Shown here: one piece after another, positions 361-10,031 of the stretch
How the letters are laid out: every line of letters starts with the position of its first letter
Numbering within the stretch: position 1 is the stretch's first letter
Origin: a virus
Lineage: Duplodnaviria > Heunggongvirae > Uroviricota > Caudoviricetes
Reading direction: 5' to 3' (one strand)
DNA length: 10,031 nucleotides
IMG/VR virus record: IMGVR_UViG_2663763232_000016
The notes under the pieces: generated by a model
The model's database searches: none
Seen by the model: only the letters and a program-made list of their open reading frames with translations
What the model was told of the DNA's origin: nothing
Made by a program: the position numbers and the translations under genes

Positions 361-375
361 TCTGTCATACGGTCT

Positions 376-394
376 GCCGGGTAAAATTCCCGGC
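376..394. repeat. Hairpin-forming inverted repeat GCCGGG-TAAAATT-CCCGGC just after the OB-fold gene stop; no adjacent T-tract
   Basis: Perfect 6-bp arms read directly from the sequence, 16 nt downstream of the TAA at 358-360. A terminator role is not supported by a U-run. Confidence 0.3.
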
Positions 395-1653
395 AACTCA
401 TCTACCCCACCTCATGGATGTCCCTGCTATTTGACGATCCAGCTTACATGCTCTTGCTGAAAATATCTTACGGCTCTCTGGGCCAGGTGCCTGACGTGAC
501 AGACGATCCCTCAATAATTTCTTATCTTCTTGCTGAAATATCGCAGAGCCGACAGGCCCAGTAACGTATTTCACCACTTCATCCCGTAGAGCATCACAGC
601 AGGGAAAACTTGCCGCAATAGGGCATTCTACTGTTCGTTTTCTGGTCTATTTAACATAATGGTTCTTATAAGTACTTGACTGGAATGGTCAGGTATTACT
701 TTTCGGAACGTTGACGCGAAGCTGGGTACACAACAGCGATTTCACCAACAGAAGGAAAGCATTCAGGAGGATTCGAGGTGAGTTCTCTTGTTCAAGGATT
801 TTGGATGAGTTTGCCTGGTCACCACACAATTTCAGGTTTCAGACCTTTGAGGCTGCCAGTGTGTCAAACGCCATAAAAGCACTTTTTTCTGTTTACCAGC
901 AGACACAAAGCCACTACACCGACGTTACCACAACGGGCTGAAGGTCTGCCATCACCTGGTGATATTCACGAGCCTGACCGCCACTGTTTCGTACCATTTC
1001 CCAAAACAATGTAAACAGCCAACCCACCAATCCCTTCTACGCTCCACCAGAAGCGCTACAGTGCGTTATCCCCCCAGATGTAAACTGACGTACCGATAAT
1101 CCACGACATCCCACAGCGCGATACAGGAACCACCAGAGGACATCTGTTTTAGTTTTAATGTGTCTTTTTTATTTTTTGTAAAAAGATGGTTCAGAAAGTG
1201 GGTTGTGTTTAGCACCCATTCAATTGGCGGATTCGCCTAGGCCGCGCCATTACTGGCTTCGCTGCATGCACCACACCATAACGCCCATAGGTACAAACTT
1301 GTGATTTGTACGTTTAGTGACCACTTTAGCATGATTAACTACGGATTATAGGCTATTTGAGGTGTATTTAATCTACTTTGTTCGCAGGATAGCCAATGAT
1401 AAAGATCATCCACCAAATTTTCACAGAAAACTAGTATAGGGTTGCCAATCTTCAGCCAGCGCGGAGAATGGTCGGTATTTTCAGATGAAAGCGGGGGAGG
1501 GAGATGATCAATTCTCGGAGCGGATCAGGTGCCTGGACCGCCTCAGGTGTTGCCGTCGATTGTGCCATTGAAGCATGACGCGGACATATCAAACCAGAAG
1601 TTTTCATCGGTGCGTTGGTCGCTTGGATGACTTGGAAAATTCTCACCCGGTGA

Positions 1654-1743
1654 TACCTGCACGATTTTCGTGTACCCACCCCCTCGATTTTCGAGCACCT
1701 ACCTGCACGATTTTCGAGTAGGGGGTAGTCGATTTTCGAGCAC
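1654..1743. repeat. Iteron-like array: four direct repeats of core CGATTTTCG(A/T)G, organised as a tandem ~46-bp duplication, followed by an AT-rich tract
   Basis: Core copies start at 1662, 1685, 1708 and 1730 (spacing 23, 23, 22 bp, about two helical turns). Units 1654-1699 and 1700-1745 are near-identical except the centre (CCCACCCCC versus TAGGGGGTA). AT-rich run AATAATAATAAATAACAAT begins at 1744. Confidence 0.6.
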
Positions 1744-2246
1744 AATAATAATAAATAACAATCTCCATAAAAGAACTGATAAGAAAAGTACCTCCAGGTC
1801 GAGAGCACGGAATGACGGTTGGTCATTCTGTTAGTTTTAATAGTGATGCTTCTGCATCGCTCCGCTCTGCAATGGCTGGTCAGCCACTTCAGATATGTTT
1901 GTGGTAAGAAGCTCACCTTTGCTGACGTGAAACAGCCGCGCCATCTCGTGACCTTCTAACCCTCGTTAACACATCGCTACGCTCTGTGACTCGGGTAACC
2001 CGACAGGCTACGCCAGAGAGCTACGCTCTCACTCTGTGTGGAAGCTGCGAACTTGTTCGCCATATGTGGATCGGAGCACGGCGGAGAGGACTGCTTTGCA
2101 TCTGTCCGGTTCACTCCGGGGCGGCGCGGGTTGTCTAACTGACTTCCTCAGCGCCTCTCTACGGCGTTTAAATGGTGTGGGTAACACGATGGTACTGCTA
2201 TAACGACGAGTCCCCGCAGAACGCGTCACAGAACGATCTAGCACTA

Positions 2247-2275
2247 TTGACAAAGATTTTTTAAACTTGTAATGT
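2247..2275 (+). promoter_or_regulatory. Sigma70-like promoter TTGACA-17-TAATGT
   Basis: -35 TTGACA at 2247-2252, 17-nt spacer, -10 TAATGT at 2270-2275; lies upstream of the cluster beginning at 2492. Confidence 0.45.
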
Positions 2276-2317
2276 TATGGTGATTATTATGCATTATAAA
2301 ATGCTACATGATAATGA

Positions 2318-2346
2318 TTGCTATTTACAAACAAATCTGATACAAT
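2318..2346 (+). promoter_or_regulatory. Sigma70-like promoter TTGCTA-17-TACAAT
   Basis: -35 TTGCTA at 2318-2323, 17-nt spacer, -10 TACAAT at 2341-2346; about 145 nt upstream of the ATG at 2492. Confidence 0.45.
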
Positions 2347-2491
2347 AGATTTTAGTAGGGTAATGATTTACCTACGAATCCTCGAATAATTCTGCCGTCA
2401 TCACGACATTCCTTGTCAACCTCACGGCATTACAAAATGGGTTACAAATAGAACCTCCGCGAATAATTCTTTTAACAGAACGGAGAACCCA

Positions 2492-3025: not shown

Positions 3026-3229
3026 ATGAACATCAAATTTCAACAGCACGTTTATCAGGCTCTACTAGCTGAGGCCAAAAGGCAGGACAAGCCCCTGGCA
3101 CGGCTCTGTAATGAAATCTTGGAGACTGCCGCGAACATTTTCGACAACACACCAGACATCAAACCAGCATTAGCCAGCAAGGCGACACTTTACGGAGAAC
3201 AGAATGAGCAAACAGAACCGGGACAGTAA
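3026..3229 (+). CDS. Small DNA-binding protein, ribbon-helix-helix-like (CopG/Arc/ParG-type fold suspected), 67 aa
   Basis: AGGAGG at 3011-3016, 9 nt before ATG 3026. N-terminal short strand (NIKFQQ) followed by two predicted helices (HVYQALLAEAKRQD / PLARLCNEILETA) matches RHH layout. Not confirmed by search. Confidence 0.7.
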   Translation: MNIKFQQHVYQALLAEAKRQDKPLARLCNEILETAANIFDNTPDIKPALASKATLYGEQNEQTEPGQ

Positions 3230-3950
3230 GGATTTTGTAAAACTTGAATACAGCATTCTCGACCTTACCGAGTACAACGGCCTGACCATTAATGGCAACA
3301 TGAAAATTTTGCTATCTCTGGTTTACAGCTATGACAAAACAGGCAGAACTTATTACGAGTCTGTTGGCATGATTGGTAAACGTTGCGGCTGCAAGCCCGA
3401 AGCCGTTCGTAATTTCAGGAACAAGCTTCGTGAAGCGGGAATGATCACTTTTGAGGAAGAGCAGGGGAGAACACACAAAATTTCTCCGGTCGAACTCGAT
3501 CCATCGTTGATGGTTTTTCTTGACGATCATAATTCCACGCAGGTGAGTAATAGAAAAGTGGAAACCGAGGAGAGCGGTAAGAATGAGCAGAAACGTGATG
3601 TGGAATCTTTCGTGGTGGAACCTGCCGCGCCTGTTGCTGGAAAACCAGACGGCCTACCTGTTGTGGATATTCCTGTCGATGCTGATGTACCTGCCAATGA
3701 TGATGCGGTGAACGCTTCTGATAGGTATACCGATGAACAATTAGGCACCAAGCTGAGGCGATGGCGCAATTGGGGACTGGATGAAGAAGCAAAAGCGTTT
3801 TGTCTCTCTCATGGTATCAGCAGCGATGAGGACAGCATGAATCTGTTTATTCAAAATTATCATGTACCCGCACCGGAGTCAGTAGAACAACAGGTTAACG
3901 CCCCAGCAGATGAGCTGCCGCTTGATTATGATGACTCGATCCCTTTCTGA
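3204..3950 (+). CDS. Protein with N-terminal winged-helix-like DNA-binding domain (resembling replisome-organizer / replication-initiator N-domains) and an acidic, low-complexity C-terminal half, 248 aa
   Basis: GGAGA at 3194-3198, 5 nt before ATG 3204; the start overlaps the 3-prime end of the RHH gene by 26 nt. Segment KILLSLVYSYDKTGRTYYESVGMIGKRCGCKPEAVRNFRNKLREAGMITFEE looks like helix-turn-wing. C-terminal half is rich in D/E/P. Confidence 0.8.
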   Translation: MSKQNRDSKDFVKLEYSILDLTEYNGLTINGNMKILLSLVYSYDKTGRTYYESVGMIGKRCGCKPEAVRNFRNKLREAGMITFEEEQGRTHKISPVELDPSLMVFLDDHNSTQVSNRKVETEESGKNEQKRDVESFVVEPAAPVAGKPDGLPVVDIPVDADVPANDDAVNASDRYTDEQLGTKLRRWRNWGLDEEAKAFCLSHGISSDEDSMNLFIQNYHVPAPESVEQQVNAPADELPLDYDDSIPF

Positions 3951-7074: not shown

Positions 7075-7158
7075 AATCATCGTTCCGTCGAAAATGGCGC
7101 AGCAAATTGGCCCACACGAGAGAGGGCCGTTGAATTCGCCATGTTATTGTTTTTGTTG

Positions 7159-7187
7159 TTGCAAATGATAATCATTCGTGTTAAAAT
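7159..7187 (+). promoter_or_regulatory. Strong sigma70-like promoter TTGCAA-17-TAAAAT with extended -10 TG
   Basis: -35 TTGCAA at 7159-7164, 17-nt spacer, TG at 7179-7180, -10 TAAAAT at 7182-7187, set in an AT-rich stretch; predicted start near 7195. Confidence 0.4.
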
Positions 7188-7243
7188 AATATACAAGGTG
7201 AATTACAACAGCCAAATGTTTTCCCTTCTCCTTAGGAATCAAA

Positions 7244-7270
7244 GTGCGCTTTTCCCAGAGCGCCTTTTCT
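7244..7270 (+). terminator. Weak intrinsic-terminator-like hairpin about 50-75 nt downstream of the 7159-7187 promoter
   Basis: GCGCT (7246-7250) pairs with AGCGC (7259-7263) around an 8-nt loop, followed by CTTTTCT (7264-7270). Short stem, so low confidence. Confidence 0.3.
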
Positions 7271-7532
7271 CATACAGCCAATATTCGCACCCTCTCACGG
7301 TAAGGTTAGGCCATTGCCGCTGGCTGTATCAGAAAAGATTTTCTCCGACCTTGGATCGGGGATTTGCCAAAGCCTTTCATCCTCGGAAGGCCGTCTTGCC
7401 AGACGAAAACTGGCATTGAGTGCGGCAGCGAAGATATGAGGTCTCCCGCTGCTGTGCTCCCTCATTCCTGAAGCGTGACCCGCCGATCATGCTTTCCAAA
7501 TCTCTCCATCAGAAAATACCATCGTGAAGCTA

Positions 7533-7552
7533 TTAGCAACGCATGTTGCTAA
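7533..7552. repeat. 20-bp palindrome TTAGCAAC-GCAT-GTTGCTAA (candidate operator or RNA hairpin)
   Basis: Perfect 8-bp inverted arms with a 4-bp spacer, read directly from the sequence; sits between the promoter at 7159 and the terminators at 7595-7678. Confidence 0.5.
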
Positions 7553-7594
7553 CCCGTAAACGGGTGAATTTCATCATCTCCGATGATCTACCAA

Positions 7595-7629
7595 CCGGGG
7601 CAGGCGTTTTCCTGCCTCCGGCTCTTTTT
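7595..7629 (+). terminator. Rho-independent terminator (about 10-bp stem with one bulge, then CTCTTTTT)
   Basis: CCGGGGCAGG (7595-7604) pairs with CCTGCC-T-CCGG (7611-7621) around loop CGTTTT; T-run at 7625-7629. Confidence 0.5.
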
Positions 7630-7654
7630 CTGTTGGGAATACAAATAAAAGAAT

Positions 7655-7678
7655 GCCGTCCGATGGACGGTATTTTTT
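7655..7678 (+). terminator. Rho-independent terminator (GC-rich stem CCGTCC/GGACGG followed by TATTTTTT)
   Basis: Stem 7656-7661 pairs with 7665-7670 around a 3-nt loop; T-run at 7673-7678; 40 nt upstream of the capsid-pair start. Confidence 0.6.
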
Positions 7679-7735
7679 CAACACAACCCGGCATATTCGC
7701 CGGATTATAAAAATTGCATGGAGATACAACAAAAT

Positions 7736-8080
7736 ATGGCATTCGAACATGAAAGCAAAACCCCACAGGATGTATTGGTTTATACCGATAGCCCGATCTT
7801 TCATAAGCGCACCGTGATCTTTGATCTGGCTGCTGATGTGACTTGTGGTGATGTGATTAACCCGACCACTGGCGCGGCATACGTTGCAGCCGATGCTGAT
7901 AACTGTGCTGTAGCTCTGCAAAATCAAATCGCTGGTGATGCCCGTAGCCTGGTCATTTCAGACCGTGGCTGTGTGTTCAATCCATCTGGTCTGGTTGTAG
8001 CGGCTGCTGCAAAAGATGCTGCTTACGCTGCCCTTGTTAAGCAAGGCAACCGCATTGCTGACGCAAACACTGCAATCTAA
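7736..8080 (+). CDS. Putative head decoration protein (lambda gpD-like size and composition), about 114 aa; alternative start ATG 7718
   Basis: ORF from ATG 7718 to TAA 8078-8080; the second ATG at 7736 has GGAGA at 7720-7724 (11-nt spacing) whereas 7718 has no Shine-Dalgarno. Small Ala/Gly-rich protein directly upstream of a capsid-sized gene; segment TTGAAYVAADADNCA resembles lambda D TDGAAVGILAVAADQ. Not confirmed by search. Confidence 0.7.
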   Translation: MAFEHESKTPQDVLVYTDSPIFHKRTVIFDLAADVTCGDVINPTTGAAYVAADADNCAVALQNQIAGDARSLVISDRGCVFNPSGLVVAAAAKDAAYAALVKQGNRIADANTAI

Positions 8081-8098
8081 TCAAGGAGTGATAACAAT

Positions 8099-9115
8099 AT
8101 GAAATTAAGTGATTTTACTAACCTTTCCGGTCAGTTTGTGAAGCCAAGCGGCGAGGGGTTCCTTCTGTCCAGCCTGGGGATCTTTACCAGCCGTCCAAGT
8201 GATACGCAAATCATCGCGCTCGACACACTGGAAGATGTGCAGCGTGAAGTGACCAAATCTGTTGCCCGTTATGGTTCTGAAATGTCCGGTCTAAACTTCC
8301 CTAAAGCGGCTAACGTGACTGTTCAGGCTCCACTGCATGTCTACAGCTCAACCATCACCAGCCAGGATTGGCAGGGGAAACGTCAGCCGGGAACAAATCG
8401 CCAGATGACCGCTGAAGATGTAGTTGCTAATCATACCCTGAAGCACTACCTGCAAACCCGCCGTGATGTTGAATATGCCATGGCGCAGAGCCTGCTTCAC
8501 AATACTGTAGAGGCGACACACCTTCGTGAAGGTCCTGATCTGAACTGGCAAACCTTCTGGGGTATTAACCAGCCGTCTGCTGTGGTGAAAACTGGCATCA
8601 GTGCCAACGTTATTACTGAGATGCAGAACGCTGTCACGCTGCTGAAGAAAAATCTGGGTGGCTGGTCTTCCAGCATCAAGCAGGTTTATCTGCTAGCGAG
8701 TCCGAGTCTTTTCACCGCCATTCAAGGCAACCCAACCGCATATCAGGCGGCTCTGTTTGGTGCTACGTCCCGTGACATCATTTTCCCTGACACTTTGGGC
8801 GCATATGATCGATACAACATCGGGCGCGTAACTGTAGTTCAGGTTGACGATCCGCTATACGGCATTGCAGATGGTGAAGGCTACATGCTGGCGACGTTCT
8901 CCAATGTTGTTGAAGGCGACCTTTCACCTTATATGACTTACCAGACTCCGGCGAGCCGTCATGCTGACGTTGCTAATGGTCCGGTTTATCCGTCTTACCA
9001 TTACGTTCTGCGTGATAAGTTCATGAATTATGAGGTGGTCAGCGAGCTATCACAAATTCAGATCCCAATGCGTCCAGACTTCGTTTTGAAAATTACGATG
9101 GATGACGCGGCGTAA
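8099..9115 (+). CDS. Putative major capsid protein (lambda gpE-like / HK97-fold class suggested by size and synteny), 338 aa
   Basis: AAGGAG at 8083-8088, 10 nt before ATG 8099; TAA at 9113-9115. Length close to lambda gpE (341 aa), directly downstream of the decoration-like gene, about 50 percent GC. Family call is from context and size, not from detectable identity to lambda E. Confidence 0.85.
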   Translation: MKLSDFTNLSGQFVKPSGEGFLLSSLGIFTSRPSDTQIIALDTLEDVQREVTKSVARYGSEMSGLNFPKAANVTVQAPLHVYSSTITSQDWQGKRQPGTNRQMTAEDVVANHTLKHYLQTRRDVEYAMAQSLLHNTVEATHLREGPDLNWQTFWGINQPSAVVKTGISANVITEMQNAVTLLKKNLGGWSSSIKQVYLLASPSLFTAIQGNPTAYQAALFGATSRDIIFPDTLGAYDRYNIGRVTVVQVDDPLYGIADGEGYMLATFSNVVEGDLSPYMTYQTPASRHADVANGPVYPSYHYVLRDKFMNYEVVSELSQIQIPMRPDFVLKITMDDAA

Positions 9116-9177: not shown

Positions 9178-9390
9178 ATGAAATTAGCTTTGATCGGTAC
9201 TGGCAACATGCCGCTGATGCAGTGGATTCTAGATGGCAAGGGCGATGATGCGATTATCAACATGTCAGCGTTAGCACGCAGGCTTGAGTGTAGTCGTTCC
9301 AGCCTACTTGACCGCATCCATACGCATGGATTCGACAGCGCTATTAGGTACTACCTCAACGAACAGCGACAACGAAAACTGAAAACATGA
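9178..9390 (+). CDS. Small protein with HTH-like segment, 70 aa (the ORF track shows a longer version from 9127)
   Basis: AGGAGA at 9167-9172, 5 nt before ATG 9178; TGA at 9388-9390. Segment INMSALARRLECSRSSLLDRIH looks like a helix-turn-helix. Function unknown. Confidence 0.55.
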   Translation: MKLALIGTGNMPLMQWILDGKGDDAIINMSALARRLECSRSSLLDRIHTHGFDSAIRYYLNEQRQRKLKT

Positions 9391-9391
9391 G

Positions 9392-9416
9392 AGCCGGGTT
9401 AATCCCGGCTTTTTTT
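9392..9416. terminator. Bidirectional rho-independent terminator shared by the capsid transcription unit and the convergent minus-strand gene
   Basis: Perfect 7-bp stem AGCCGGG / CCCGGCT around loop TTAAT, flanked by an A-run upstream and TTTTTTT at 9410-9416. The stop codon of the minus-strand gene lies in the loop. Confidence 0.75.
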
Positions 9417-10031
9417 ATGTACTTTGCTGAAGTCAAAAAGATTGTCAAATTTAATGATATCTAATCCAGAGATAGCGTGATTAACATCTTTCATCATTGC
9501 GCCATGTTCATCATAAGCGTTACGTATTGCCATGAATTCTTCTGGTGTTATCTGTGCTTTAAGCAAAGCCTGCATGATGAGAGTCATCAGTTTTGAGATG
9601 GCTATTTGCGTATTACCAGAAGATCGAAGAAGGGCGTTGAATGGCTCCCAGGAAACCTTTTTAATCAGAACATTATAGTGACTTAACTTGATGAAAGAGC
9701 TACCAATGCGAAAGGTATTTTCCGTCATATCTTTCAAGGATTCTTGAATATGATAATAGCTTTCTTCGTCGGCTTTTTGTCCTGATTTCGCCAGTGTGTC
9801 GAGAAAAGTCATAATGCGGTTTAAGTCAAAGCGCATACGATTGTAACGGCTTCTGGTGCTATCAATTTCTTCTTTAAGAGCGATTGCTGAATCAATTGCC
9901 CGCTCCATTTTTCTCGTCTTCACAATCTCCTGAAGTTTAACCCCTCCGAAGATGACGCCGCCAACCACACTCAACGCTGTTACAGCATTCGAAGCGATAG
10001 AGATAATGTTATCCCATGCTTGTAAATCCAT
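9399..10031 (-). CDS. Membrane-anchored protein (N-terminal transmembrane helix plus helical soluble domain), at least 210 aa; possible moron / superinfection-exclusion or abortive-infection candidate; may extend beyond the window
   Basis: ORF ends at TAA (complement of 9399-9401); its ATG is the last three bases of the window, so the true start may lie outside. Hydrophobic segment IISIASNAVTALSVVGGVIFGGV near the N-terminus. Local GC is about 34 percent in a hand-counted 100-nt sample versus about 50 percent in the capsid gene. Confidence 0.8.
   Translation of the reverse strand: MDLQAWDNIISIASNAVTALSVVGGVIFGGVKLQEIVKTRKMERAIDSAIALKEEIDSTRSRYNRMRFDLNRIMTFLDTLAKSGQKADEESYYHIQESLKDMTENTFRIGSSFIKLSHYNVLIKKVSWEPFNALLRSSGNTQIAISKLMTLIMQALLKAQITPEEFMAIRNAYDEHGAMMKDVNHAISGLDIIKFDNLFDFSKVHKKSRD

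What the first reader, a model, noticed from the sequence alone, without database searches (positions are those of the whole stretch)
9399..10031. AT-rich, convergently oriented gene for a single-pass membrane protein abutting the capsid genes
The gene's composition differs sharply from the rest of the window (about 34 percent GC in a hand-counted 100-nt sample versus about 50 percent in the capsid gene). It is on the opposite strand and separated from the capsid unit only by a shared bidirectional terminator. That architecture is typical of morons and defence or superinfection-exclusion cargo inserted between structural modules. The product has one N-terminal transmembrane helix and a helical domain of about 175 aa in which I recognise no family. 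Its start coincides with the window edge, so it may be the last gene of a larger unit continuing beyond 10031.
Basis: partly seen in the sequence, partly recalled or inferred. Interest (0 to 1): 0.65.

Follow-up and report, generated by a model that had tools for sequence, protein, structure and literature searches.

The report
Membrane protein in satellite defence slot
The AT-rich gene is real and encodes an uncharacterised inner-membrane protein; it is the last gene of a small capsid-carrying mobile island, in a variable slot that holds the Kiwa anti-phage system in sister islands, so it is a good but untested candidate for a new phage-exclusion gene.

Summary
Window 9399-10031 (-) is an intact 210-aa ORF. 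Its GC is 39.8%, against 47-52% for the other genes. It converges on the capsid operon at a strong hairpin terminator. The product has one N-terminal transmembrane helix and a confidently modelled four-helix bundle.

The window is part of a 13.4-kb integrated island in E. coli, flanked by 71-bp repeats in the thiM TPP riboswitch. The gene is the island's terminal gene, 194 nt from attR, so no larger unit continues past 10031.

Homologues form a tiny family (77 clusters, all Enterobacterales, all "hypothetical"). They have no Pfam, NCBIfam, PHROG, PADLOC or PDB match. Every homologue context examined, and no phage or plasmid record, places them in one slot of related islands: between the integrase/att module and the end of the late (capsid) operon.

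Among related islands the slot is empty, holds other small genes, or holds KwaA-KwaB (Kiwa). Ten of 12 E. coli islands with near-identical capsid genes lack the gene, so it is exchangeable cargo and not a core gene.

One face of the TM helix is nearly invariant, while the bundle diverges to about 22% identity.

The best reading is a lysogeny-expressed, membrane-anchored anti-phage protein. This is inferred and untested.

The parts
9399..10031 (-). CDS of the 210-aa membrane protein (MDLQAWDN...KKSRD). RefSeq annotates it one ATG longer, as WP_236917608.1.
   Evidence: The family alignment favours the MDLQ start, and the AGAGG Shine-Dalgarno lies 5 nt upstream of that ATG.
9942..10007 (-). Codons 9-30: the single transmembrane helix, with an invariant polar/small face (N8, S11, N15, T18, V22, G25, G29, K32).
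   Evidence: Hydropathy maximum 1.93 at residues 9-27. Conservation moment peaks at 100-103 degrees; 0 of 20,000 permutations reach it. Entropy table.
9459..9914 (-). Codons 40-191: up-down four-helix bundle, predicted cytoplasmic and fast-diverging.
9429..9452 (-). Codons 194-201: conserved C-terminal motif (I)KFDDxFxF, with F195 and F201 invariant.
   Evidence: The model shows a small beta bridge between 121-123 and 199-200.
9392..9416 (.). Hairpin terminator shared by the convergent capsid operon and the membrane-protein gene. It marks the exact boundary between conserved backbone and variable cargo.
   Evidence: Homology to the 10 other E. coli islands stops at window 9416. The same hairpin in L002 is followed by a different convergent gene.
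9178..9390 (+). 70-aa ORF with a weak HTH-like signal. It is the last gene of the late/capsid operon and the real neighbour of the finding.
   Evidence: It is 99% identical in islands that lack the membrane-protein gene.
7718..9115 (+). Head-decoration-like gene (7718-8080) and lambda gpE-like major capsid gene (8099-9115). Context only.
   Evidence: Weak sub-threshold matches. Pfam Phage_cap_E E 0.0028 and HDPD E 6e-4, both below gathering score. PHROG 29 major head protein 2.5e-9. RefSeq annotates 'major capsid protein'.

Best explanation
The gene is accessory cargo in the variable slot of a small integrated, capsid-gene-carrying, satellite-like island. That slot lies between the recombination module (integrase/att) and the terminator of the late operon.

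The gene is probably transcribed in the integrated state. In this island the promoter would be its own, in the 194 nt before attR. In most sister islands it would be transcribed as the gene following the integrase.

The product inserts into the inner membrane with about 8 residues outside and the 175-residue four-helix bundle in the cytoplasm.

Proposed mechanism (inferred). The protein acts against incoming phages. The nearly invariant polar/small face of the TM helix is the working end. It either self-associates into an ion-leaking oligomer or clamps a conserved membrane component used for phage DNA entry. The fast-diverging cytoplasmic bundle sets specificity or gates the TM helix after binding a phage product. 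The outcome is exclusion or abortive infection of competitor phages, which protects the host and the island.

What is shown: the gene, its fold, its position, the cargo nature of the slot, and the pattern of constraint. What is inferred: topology, timing of expression, oligomerisation, and any anti-phage activity.
For: 1. Position. The island is bounded by 71-bp, 96%-identical repeats in the thiM TPP riboswitch (L001 3857-3927 and 17226-17296). The gene's ATG is 194 nt from attR.

2. Variable slot. Ten of 12 E. coli islands share the capsid region at about 95-96% nucleotide identity, but homology stops at window 9416, the end of the terminator T-run. Two unrelated small genes plus an integrase follow there. 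Only 2 of 5426 complete E. coli genomes carry the gene.

3. Defence in the same slot. L026/L027 have int (DUF6538 + Phage_integrase) then KwaA then KwaB, converging on the 67-aa gene and the capsid gene. PADLOC gives KwaA 2.7e-79 and KwaB 9.8e-115. That integrase is 74% identical to the L022 integrase, which sits directly upstream of family member P0083. Its capsid protein is 56% identical to that of L008, which carries a close homologue. Other islands have a DUF4062 protein (L025) or nothing (L028) in the slot.

4. Decoupled history. The protein is 71% identical between E. coli and K. aerogenes islands whose capsid proteins are undetectable by tblastn. An island with a 99% identical capsid protein lacks it.

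5. Functional gene. dN/dS is 0.13-0.16 among close relatives. The model is confident.

6. Architecture. Every family representative has 0 K/R before the TM helix and 4-6 K/R in the 15 residues after the hydrophobic core. One helix face is invariant. The N-terminal 31 residues are 62% identical among representatives, against 22% for the bundle.

7. Regulatory signals. A sigma-70-like site TTGAGT-18-TAGAAT lies on the gene's strand about 40 nt upstream of the start, followed by an AGAGG Shine-Dalgarno. In sister islands the gene starts 12-102 nt after the integrase stop on the same strand.

8. Retention. A 4.5-kb remnant island in Buttiauxella keeps the integrase, the 70-aa gene and an intact copy of this gene.

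9. Precedent. P4-like satellites have a defence hotspot between psu and int (PMC9122126). PICIs carry immune systems at their 5' or 3' ends (PMC11364771).
Against: There is no sequence or fold link to any known defence, exclusion or abortive-infection protein. PADLOC, Pfam, NCBIfam and PHROGs are all negative. The PDB profile search gives nothing better than E 0.3. Fold searches return only generic helical bundles.

The family was found nowhere except this one slot of this one island superfamily. No phage, plasmid or IMG/VR match exists. Promiscuous defence genes usually also turn up in other hotspots. Deep, position-fixed association down to 24-37% identity fits an island-specific function equally well.

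The slot also carries genes with no defence signature, so position alone is not proof.

Pairwise dN/dS shows ordinary purifying selection and no detectable arms race. The fast divergence of the bundle may simply reflect the low constraint typical of helical bundles.

The promoter call is a consensus match no commoner than in shuffled sequence: 4 sites found against 2.6 +/- 1.7 expected. Topology rests on the positive-inside rule only.
Confidence: 0.45

Rival explanations
1. The protein is a life-cycle factor of the island rather than host defence. It would be membrane-anchored and manipulate the helper phage or the infected cell for the island's benefit. Examples are changing lysis timing, or biasing DNA entry or ejection towards particles that carry the island's own tape-measure-like protein.
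For: The family is exclusive to this island superfamily and keeps the same position next to the recombination module down to 24-37% identity. It is absent from phages, plasmids and IMG/VR. The islands encode tape-measure-like and Dit-like proteins: phrog_36805 at 8.7e-14 for the 714-aa protein, and TMP_3 and Dit_like in L015 and L018. This suggests tail or ejection remodelling, in which an inner-membrane partner would make sense.
Against: Ten of 12 E. coli islands with near-identical capsid and late genes do without it. L028 has an empty slot and L026 has Kiwa instead, so it is dispensable for the island's cycle. It is transcribed convergently to the late operon, with or next to the integrase, which is not the pattern of a late morphogenetic or lysis gene. 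No lysis genes lie in the island. Its phylogeny does not track the tape-measure-like protein.
Confidence: 0.25
2. The gene is cargo with another benefit or a selfish role unrelated to phages. Possibilities are a membrane stress or physiology modifier, or an addiction-type toxic membrane peptide kept silent (for example by H-NS) because it is AT-rich.
For: The family is persistently AT-rich (0.32-0.41 GC) whatever the island's GC. The slot of the 90-1-type E. coli islands (L002) holds an 82-aa protein of low-complexity repeats and a 92-aa protein, neither with any defence match. No partner gene is present.
Against: No antitoxin-like partner or antisense feature was seen. Rfam finds nothing in the window. 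The large, well-folded 175-residue domain under purifying selection is unlike small type I toxins. The shared slot with Kiwa, and RM systems elsewhere in sister islands, point to phage conflict as the theme of the cargo.
Confidence: 0.15
3. The ORF is a spurious or decaying reading frame in AT-rich DNA at the edge of the island.
For: One homologue (Enterobacter sp. RIT637, L012) is split by a frameshift into 140-aa and 62-aa pieces. The last five codons are just the terminator read in frame.
Against: 77 homologous clusters have conserved length. dN/dS is 0.13-0.16. Synonymous changes occur within invariant residues. The model has pLDDT above 90 over 160 residues.
Confidence: 0.02

Closest known systems
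Defence hotspot of P4-like satellites between psu and int (Rousset et al. 2022, PMC9122126), and immune cargo at the 5'/3' ends of PICIs (He et al. 2024, PMC11364771)
   Same: A variable slot lies between a capsid-related late gene and the integrase/att of a small integrated phage-dependent element. Its content differs between otherwise near-identical elements, and known defence systems (here Kiwa) occupy it in relatives.
   Different: The element is neither P4-like nor a described PICI or cf-PICI. It has no psu, sid, alpA or primase, and no portal, protease or terminase was recognised. It carries lambda gpE-like capsid and gpD-like decoration genes. The cargo protein matches none of the systems catalogued from those hotspots (PADLOC negative).
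Kiwa (KwaA membrane protein + KwaB)
   Same: It occupies the same slot, in the same orientation downstream of a homologous integrase. It also includes a membrane-embedded component.
   Different: Kiwa is a two-gene system. No sequence similarity to either protein was detected, and the protein here stands alone with a single TM helix.
Prophage-encoded inner-membrane exclusion or abortive-infection proteins (from my own knowledge: lambda/P22 SieB, HK97 gp15, T4 Imm, lambda RexB)
   Same: These are small membrane proteins expressed from the integrated element, often AT-rich, with their own promoter and terminator, and positioned beside the immunity or integration region.
   Different: There is no Pfam or PHROG match to any of them. 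The architecture is different: one TM helix plus a 175-residue cytoplasmic four-helix bundle.
Four-helix-bundle ligand-binding domains of chemoreceptors and sensor kinases (Tar/Tsr, 4HB_MCP)
LidI of the Vibrio PLE satellite (a satellite membrane protein that alters helper lysis timing; from my own knowledge)
   Same: It is a satellite-encoded membrane protein that acts on the infected cell's envelope.
   Different: No sequence relation was tested or expected. LidI is expressed during infection within the PLE programme, whereas this gene sits by the integrase and converges on the late operon.

Membership tests
Mobile-element defence-hotspot cargo (P4 psu-int type) | Lies between conserved flanking landmarks of the element (end of the late/capsid module and int/att). 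| tested here: met
Mobile-element defence-hotspot cargo (P4 psu-int type) | Slot content differs among closely related elements. | tested here: met
   10 of 12 E. coli islands carry other genes after the same terminator. The slot is empty in L028 and holds a DUF4062 protein in L025.
Mobile-element defence-hotspot cargo (P4 psu-int type) | Recognised defence systems occupy the same slot in relatives. | tested here: met
   KwaA/KwaB in L026 and L027. The island is related through its integrase and capsid protein. This rests on one system in two loci; no census was done.
Mobile-element defence-hotspot cargo (P4 psu-int type) | Confers phage resistance when expressed. | not testable with these tools
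   Needs plaque assays.
Any catalogued anti-phage system (PADLOC-DB v2) | Significant HMM match to a system component. | tested here: not met
   The only hit is a spurious MTase_II match at E 0.0045.
Lambda-type moron | Autonomous transcription unit (own promoter and terminator) with deviant base composition, inserted beside late genes. | tested here: inconclusive
   Terminator and GC deviation are met. The promoter is only a consensus match. In sister islands the gene follows int without an obvious separate unit, and in AT-rich islands there is no GC contrast.
Superinfection-exclusion families SieB / Imm / gp15-like | Sequence membership (Pfam or PHROG models). | tested here: not met
Holin / pinholin | Small membrane protein encoded in a lysis cassette with an endolysin and spanin. 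| tested here: not met
   No lysis genes are present in the island or sister islands. The protein has a 175-residue soluble domain.
4HB_MCP / TarH sensor domain | Pfam match; periplasmic bundle between two TM helices; downstream signalling domains. | tested here: not met
   No Pfam hit. Single TM helix. Structural matches are non-significant.

The most novel reading that the evidence does not exclude
The protein founds a new single-gene, membrane-embedded anti-phage family. A nearly invariant polar-faced TM helix would be the oligomerising effector, and a hypervariable cytoplasmic four-helix bundle would be the phage sensor. The family would be carried exclusively by a so far undescribed superfamily of Enterobacterales satellites that bring their own lambda-like capsid and tape-measure-like genes.
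Probability: 0.25. Interest if true: 0.6.

Novelty: new member of a known kind. Interest (0 to 1): 0.4.

Why it matters
If the protein does exclude phages, it would add a compact one-gene membrane system to the defence catalogue. It would have a clean separation of a conserved effector (the TM face) and a variable sensor (the bundle), which is easy to dissect by domain swaps.

It would also show that a further, undescribed class of capsid-encoding satellite-like islands has a defence hotspot in the position equivalent to P4's psu-int slot. That would extend the rule that satellites trade immunity for carriage.

If it instead serves the island's own cycle, it would be a handle on how these islands exploit their helper.

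Either way the present evidence is positional and structural only. Many such candidates exist, so the finding is of moderate interest.

Tried and rejected
- Family libraries. Pfam, NCBIfam, PHROGs and PADLOC gave nothing significant for the protein. The ATG17_like, Gp22, TAFH and MTase_II hits lie far below threshold and were rejected.
- PDB profile search. The best match was FliS at E 0.32, rejected.
- Exhaustive profile search of 1.84 billion representatives gave only 16 hits, with no remote family link.
- tblastn against phage and plasmid collections, and a pattern scan of IMG/VR, found no homologue.
- The genome-contig scan found only 4 loci.
- The search for related loci with the capsid alignment failed because the alignment is too divergent. 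I therefore could not do a proper census of slot contents. I sampled three capsid homologues instead.
- Rfam found nothing in the window.
- I considered that the N-terminal conservation might reflect a DNA-level element such as att or a regulatory RNA. This is rejected as the main cause. Conservation starts exactly at the ATG, upstream DNA is unrelated between species, and synonymous changes occur. However, synonymous divergence is somewhat lower in the first 31 codons than in the rest (pS 0.34-0.52 against 0.59-0.83), so recombination at this conserved 5' end may contribute.
- I looked for positive selection. Pairwise dN/dS is 0.13-0.16 in the bundle among close relatives, so none was detectable. 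Distant pairs are saturated.
- Literature searches for a description of this island type found none.

Full report
**1. The observation**

Window 9399-10031 (minus strand) is an intact ORF of 210 codons beginning with ATG at the last base of the window. Its GC content is 0.398 (GC3 0.408). The nine other genes of the window lie at 0.466-0.520. No other 633-nt window falls below 0.43 (profile).

The gene converges on the + strand late operon at a hairpin, AGCCGGG-TTAAT-CCCGGCT followed by T7, at 9392-9416.
- As + strand RNA the hairpin folds at -16.9 kcal/mol (z -5.3).
- As - strand RNA it folds at -13.4 kcal/mol (z -3.5), but with a weak U tract.
- The ORF's stop codon lies in the hairpin loop. 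Its last five residues (KKSRD) are simply the T-run and stem read in frame. Shorter family members end before this tail.

The immediate neighbour is not the capsid gene, which ends at 9115. It is a 70-aa ORF (9178-9390) that closes the capsid operon.

**2. Where the window comes from**

The window is 100% identical to the chromosomes of E. coli TC24 and AREA_C483. In TC24 (locus L001; locus coordinate = window + 7001) it belongs to a 13.4-kb insertion between rcnR and thiM.

The insertion is flanked by 71-bp direct repeats, 96% identical, at L001 3857-3927 and 17226-17296. Both repeats fall inside sequence that RefSeq annotates as a TPP riboswitch.

A tyrosine integrase sits at the left end. 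The finding is the last gene at the right end, and its ATG is 194 nt from attR. Nothing continues beyond the window edge except a short promoter region, attR and thiMD.

RefSeq starts the CDS one ATG earlier (MMDLQ). The family alignment and the spacing of the AGAGG Shine-Dalgarno favour MDLQ.

A sigma-70-like site (TTGAGT-18-TAGAAT) lies on the gene's strand about 40 nt upstream of the start. It is only a consensus match: 4 sites were found in the region against 2.6 +/- 1.7 in shuffles.

The island encodes these recognisable products:
- a DnaD/O-like replication initiator (window 3204-3950);
- a 714-aa protein with PHROG matches to tape-measure families, at its N terminus and again at residues 534-629;
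- a gpD-like decoration protein;
- a gpE-like major capsid protein.

No portal, protease, terminase or lysis gene was recognised. It looks like a phage satellite of a type I could not find described. It is rare, present in 12 of 5426 complete E. coli genomes.

**3. The protein**

Topology.
- The only strongly hydrophobic stretch is residues 9-30.
- In the window protein and in ten divergent relatives, the short N-terminal flank has no K/R and one or two acidic residues.
- The 15 residues after the hydrophobic core have 4-6 K/R.
- By the positive-inside rule (established knowledge) this predicts N-out/C-in, which puts the large domain in the cytoplasm. This is a prediction, not a measurement.

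Structure. AlphaFold2 with a 29-sequence alignment gives pLDDT 81.7 and pTM 0.73. Residues 40-200 score above 90. They form an up-down four-helix bundle (helices 40-83, 89-118, 125-156, 163-191), and the C-terminal tail docks back on the 121-123 loop.

Fold searches return only generic bundles.
- Foldseek-PDB puts Tar/Tsr ligand-binding domains first, at non-significant E-values of 0.037 or worse.
- BFVD gives one marginal, poorly superposed hit.

Sequence libraries are all negative. This covers Pfam, NCBIfam, PHROGs, PADLOC and a PDB profile search.

**4. The family**

Two searches of 5.8 billion proteins give 65 and then 77 clusters at 90% identity. All come from Enterobacterales: Enterobacter, Serratia, Klebsiella, Citrobacter, Kosakonia, Pectobacterium, Pantoea, Cedecea, Cronobacter and E. 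coli. Every source name given is "hypothetical" or "uncharacterised", and none carries a Pfam domain.

An exhaustive profile search of 1.84 billion representatives finds only 16 proteins, about nine of them full length. No homologue occurs in the phage or plasmid collections or in IMG/VR.

The pattern of constraint is striking. Among ten representatives below 60% identity:

| Region | Mean pairwise identity |
|---|---|
| First 31 residues | 62% |
| Bundle (32-193) | 22% |
| C-terminal motif (I)KFDDxFxF | 43% |

Invariant residues are D7, N8, S11, S14, T18, G25, G29, K32, A49, F195 and F201.

Within the TM helix the conserved positions 8-11-15-18-22-25-29-32 follow a 3-4 spacing. The conservation moment peaks at 100-103 degrees per residue, and none of 20,000 permutations reaches it. 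One polar/small face (Asn, Ser, Asn, Thr, Gly, Gly) is therefore fixed, while the opposite face carries interchangeable hydrophobic residues. This is the signature of a tight helix-helix interface, either self-association or a conserved membrane partner.

The N-terminal conservation is mainly at protein level.
- It begins exactly at the ATG.
- Upstream DNA is unrelated between species.
- Synonymous differences occur within invariant residues.
- Synonymous divergence is nevertheless somewhat lower in the first 31 codons (pS 0.34-0.52) than in the rest (0.59-0.83).
- Against K. pneumoniae islands, only the first 98 nt of the gene and the terminator region remain alignable at DNA level.

The conserved ends may therefore also serve as recombination arms for exchanging the middle of the gene.

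Close relatives show dN/dS of 0.13-0.16 in the bundle. That is ordinary purifying selection, with no detectable positive selection.

**5. Genomic position across the family**

Every homologue whose context I read sits in one place, between the recombination module and the end of a convergent late operon.
- In Kosakonia, K. pneumoniae, E. coli (P0083), a metagenomic lineage (P0069) and P0070, the order is integrase, then the gene 12-102 nt later on the same strand, then the late operon converging on it. The late operon runs decoration, capsid, a 65-76-aa protein and a protein of about 600 aa. This holds at 33-41% identity over the aligned part.
- In K. aerogenes and in the window, the gene is the terminal gene next to the host flank. 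In the excised circle this is the same neighbourhood.
- The most distant branch (P0077, 178 aa, on more than 130 E. coli contigs) sits at the end of a different island that carries resolvase, TMP_3 and Dit_like genes.

**6. Core gene or cargo**

The gene is cargo.
- Ten E. coli islands share the capsid region with the window at about 95-96% nucleotide identity, and the capsid protein is 99% identical. Homology ends at window 9416, the last T of the terminator. A different convergent 82-aa gene, a 92-aa gene and an integrase follow.
- Conversely, the protein is 71% identical between the E. coli and K. aerogenes islands, whose capsid proteins are no longer detectable by tblastn.
- Sampling islands through capsid homologues gave three further slot states. 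L028 has an empty slot. L025 (Serratia) has a DUF4062 protein. L026 and L027 have a complete Kiwa system directly downstream of the integrase and convergent with the capsid operon.
- PADLOC confirms Kiwa: KwaA 2.7e-79 and KwaB 9.8e-115.
- The L026 integrase is 74% identical to the L022 integrase, which precedes family member P0083. The L026 capsid protein is 56% identical to that of L008, which carries a close homologue. The slots are therefore equivalent.
- L026 and L027 also carry a methylase plus Eco29kI restriction system elsewhere in the locus, upstream of the island's early genes.

The family is AT-rich everywhere (0.32-0.41 GC), whether the island is at 0.38 or 0.54. The contrast seen in the window is thus a property of the family placed in a GC-richer backbone. 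It is not a sign of recent foreign origin.

A 4.5-kb remnant island at the same thiM site in Buttiauxella keeps only the integrase, the 70-aa gene, an intact copy of this gene and little else. An Enterobacter copy is frameshifted.

**7. Interpretation**

Shown:
- a real, selected gene for a bitopic membrane protein with a four-helix bundle;
- terminal position in a satellite-like island;
- a slot that varies between close relatives and holds a bona fide defence system in a sister island;
- a fixed TM face and a fast-diverging bundle.

Inferred: expression in the integrated state, cytoplasmic location of the bundle, oligomerisation or partner binding through the TM face, and anti-phage function.

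I commit to the defence/exclusion reading at about 0.45. Within it, I slightly prefer a sensor-effector model, with the variable cytoplasmic bundle sensing a phage product and the conserved TM helix assembling into a leak. The alternative is an entry-block model, with the conserved TM and periplasmic tip binding a conserved host entry component.

The arrangement parallels the psu-int hotspot of P4-like satellites (PMC9122126) and the terminal immune regions of PICIs (PMC11364771).

The main rival, at about 0.25, is an island-specific role in exploiting the helper. The family's exclusive and ancient association with these islands supports this. The gene's dispensability in most close relatives, and its orientation away from the late operon, count against it.

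**8. Novelty and score**

The protein family is undescribed. The kind of thing, accessory and probably protective cargo in a satellite hotspot, is well known, so I rate it a new member of a known kind.

Interest is moderate (0.4). It is a well-supported candidate with a tidy architecture, but there is no functional evidence and many comparable candidates exist. The island type itself may be the more unusual object (see the items noticed in passing).

Noticed in passing
whole window; L001 3857-17296: The window is part of a 13.4-kb integrated island. It carries gpE-like capsid and gpD-like decoration genes, a 714-aa protein with a tape-measure-like N terminus, and a DnaD/O-like initiator. No portal, protease, terminase or lysis genes were recognised. 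Sister islands in Klebsiella, Kosakonia, Serratia and E. coli share the plan, some with Dit_like or TMP_3 genes. It fits none of the described satellite families (P4-like, PICI, cf-PICI, PLE), and I found no paper describing it.
   Followed up: partly
L001 3851-3947 and 17220-17316 (outside the window, right of 10031): The island is inserted in the thiM TPP riboswitch, which it duplicates as a 71-bp repeat. The left copy now precedes the integrase gene. The right copy precedes thiMD and is fed by island DNA that contains a + strand promoter-like site (L001 17141-17169). This suggests the island supplies a replacement promoter for thiMD, and that the integrase may have come under thiamine-riboswitch control.
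   Followed up: partly
window 361-2491: About 2.1 kb has no convincing ORF and no RefSeq annotation, yet most of it (from window 649 on) is 90% identical to the 90-1-type E. coli islands. It contains four 15-nt iteron-like direct repeats spaced 22-23 nt apart at 1661-1743 (TCGATTTTCGAGCAC), possibly the origin. There is no Rfam match.
   Followed up: partly
L001 17075-17110 (window-equivalent 10074-10109, outside the window) and L001 3990-4003: TGTCAC-containing repeats (cattgTGTCACtcaaccTGTCACacat) overlap the predicted -35 of the membrane-protein gene. A related copy lies just upstream of the integrase start at the other end. These may be integrase arm sites or an operator.
   Followed up: no
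window 7075-7717: About 640 nt between the 714-aa gene and the decoration gene is unannotated. It holds only a low-complexity 92-aa ORF (7141-7419), and homology to sister E. coli islands is patchy there (74-89%).
   Followed up: no
L026 1574-3432 and 11413-12956; L027: A sister island carries two defence systems. Kiwa sits in the int-proximal slot. A DNA methylase plus Eco29kI-like restriction enzyme lies upstream of the early genes.
   Followed up: partly
L018-L021 9169-10537: The most distant family branch (P0077, 178 aa) is the commonest one in E. coli, on more than 130 contigs. A 283-aa protein with no Pfam match precedes it and overlaps its start by 20 nt. It lies in an island near cmoA/cmoB that has resolvase, TMP_3, Dit_like and a large serine recombinase. 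This may be a two-gene version of the system.
   Followed up: no
L001 6609-7361 (ends at window 360): A 250-aa island protein has a strong tRNA_anti-like OB-fold match (Pfam 7.4e-16), with no obvious role.
   Followed up: no
L011 1-4700: In Buttiauxella, a roughly 4.5-kb remnant or mini-island sits at the same thiM riboswitch site. It retains the integrase (91% identical), the 70-aa gene and an intact copy of the membrane-protein gene, but has no capsid module.
   Followed up: partly
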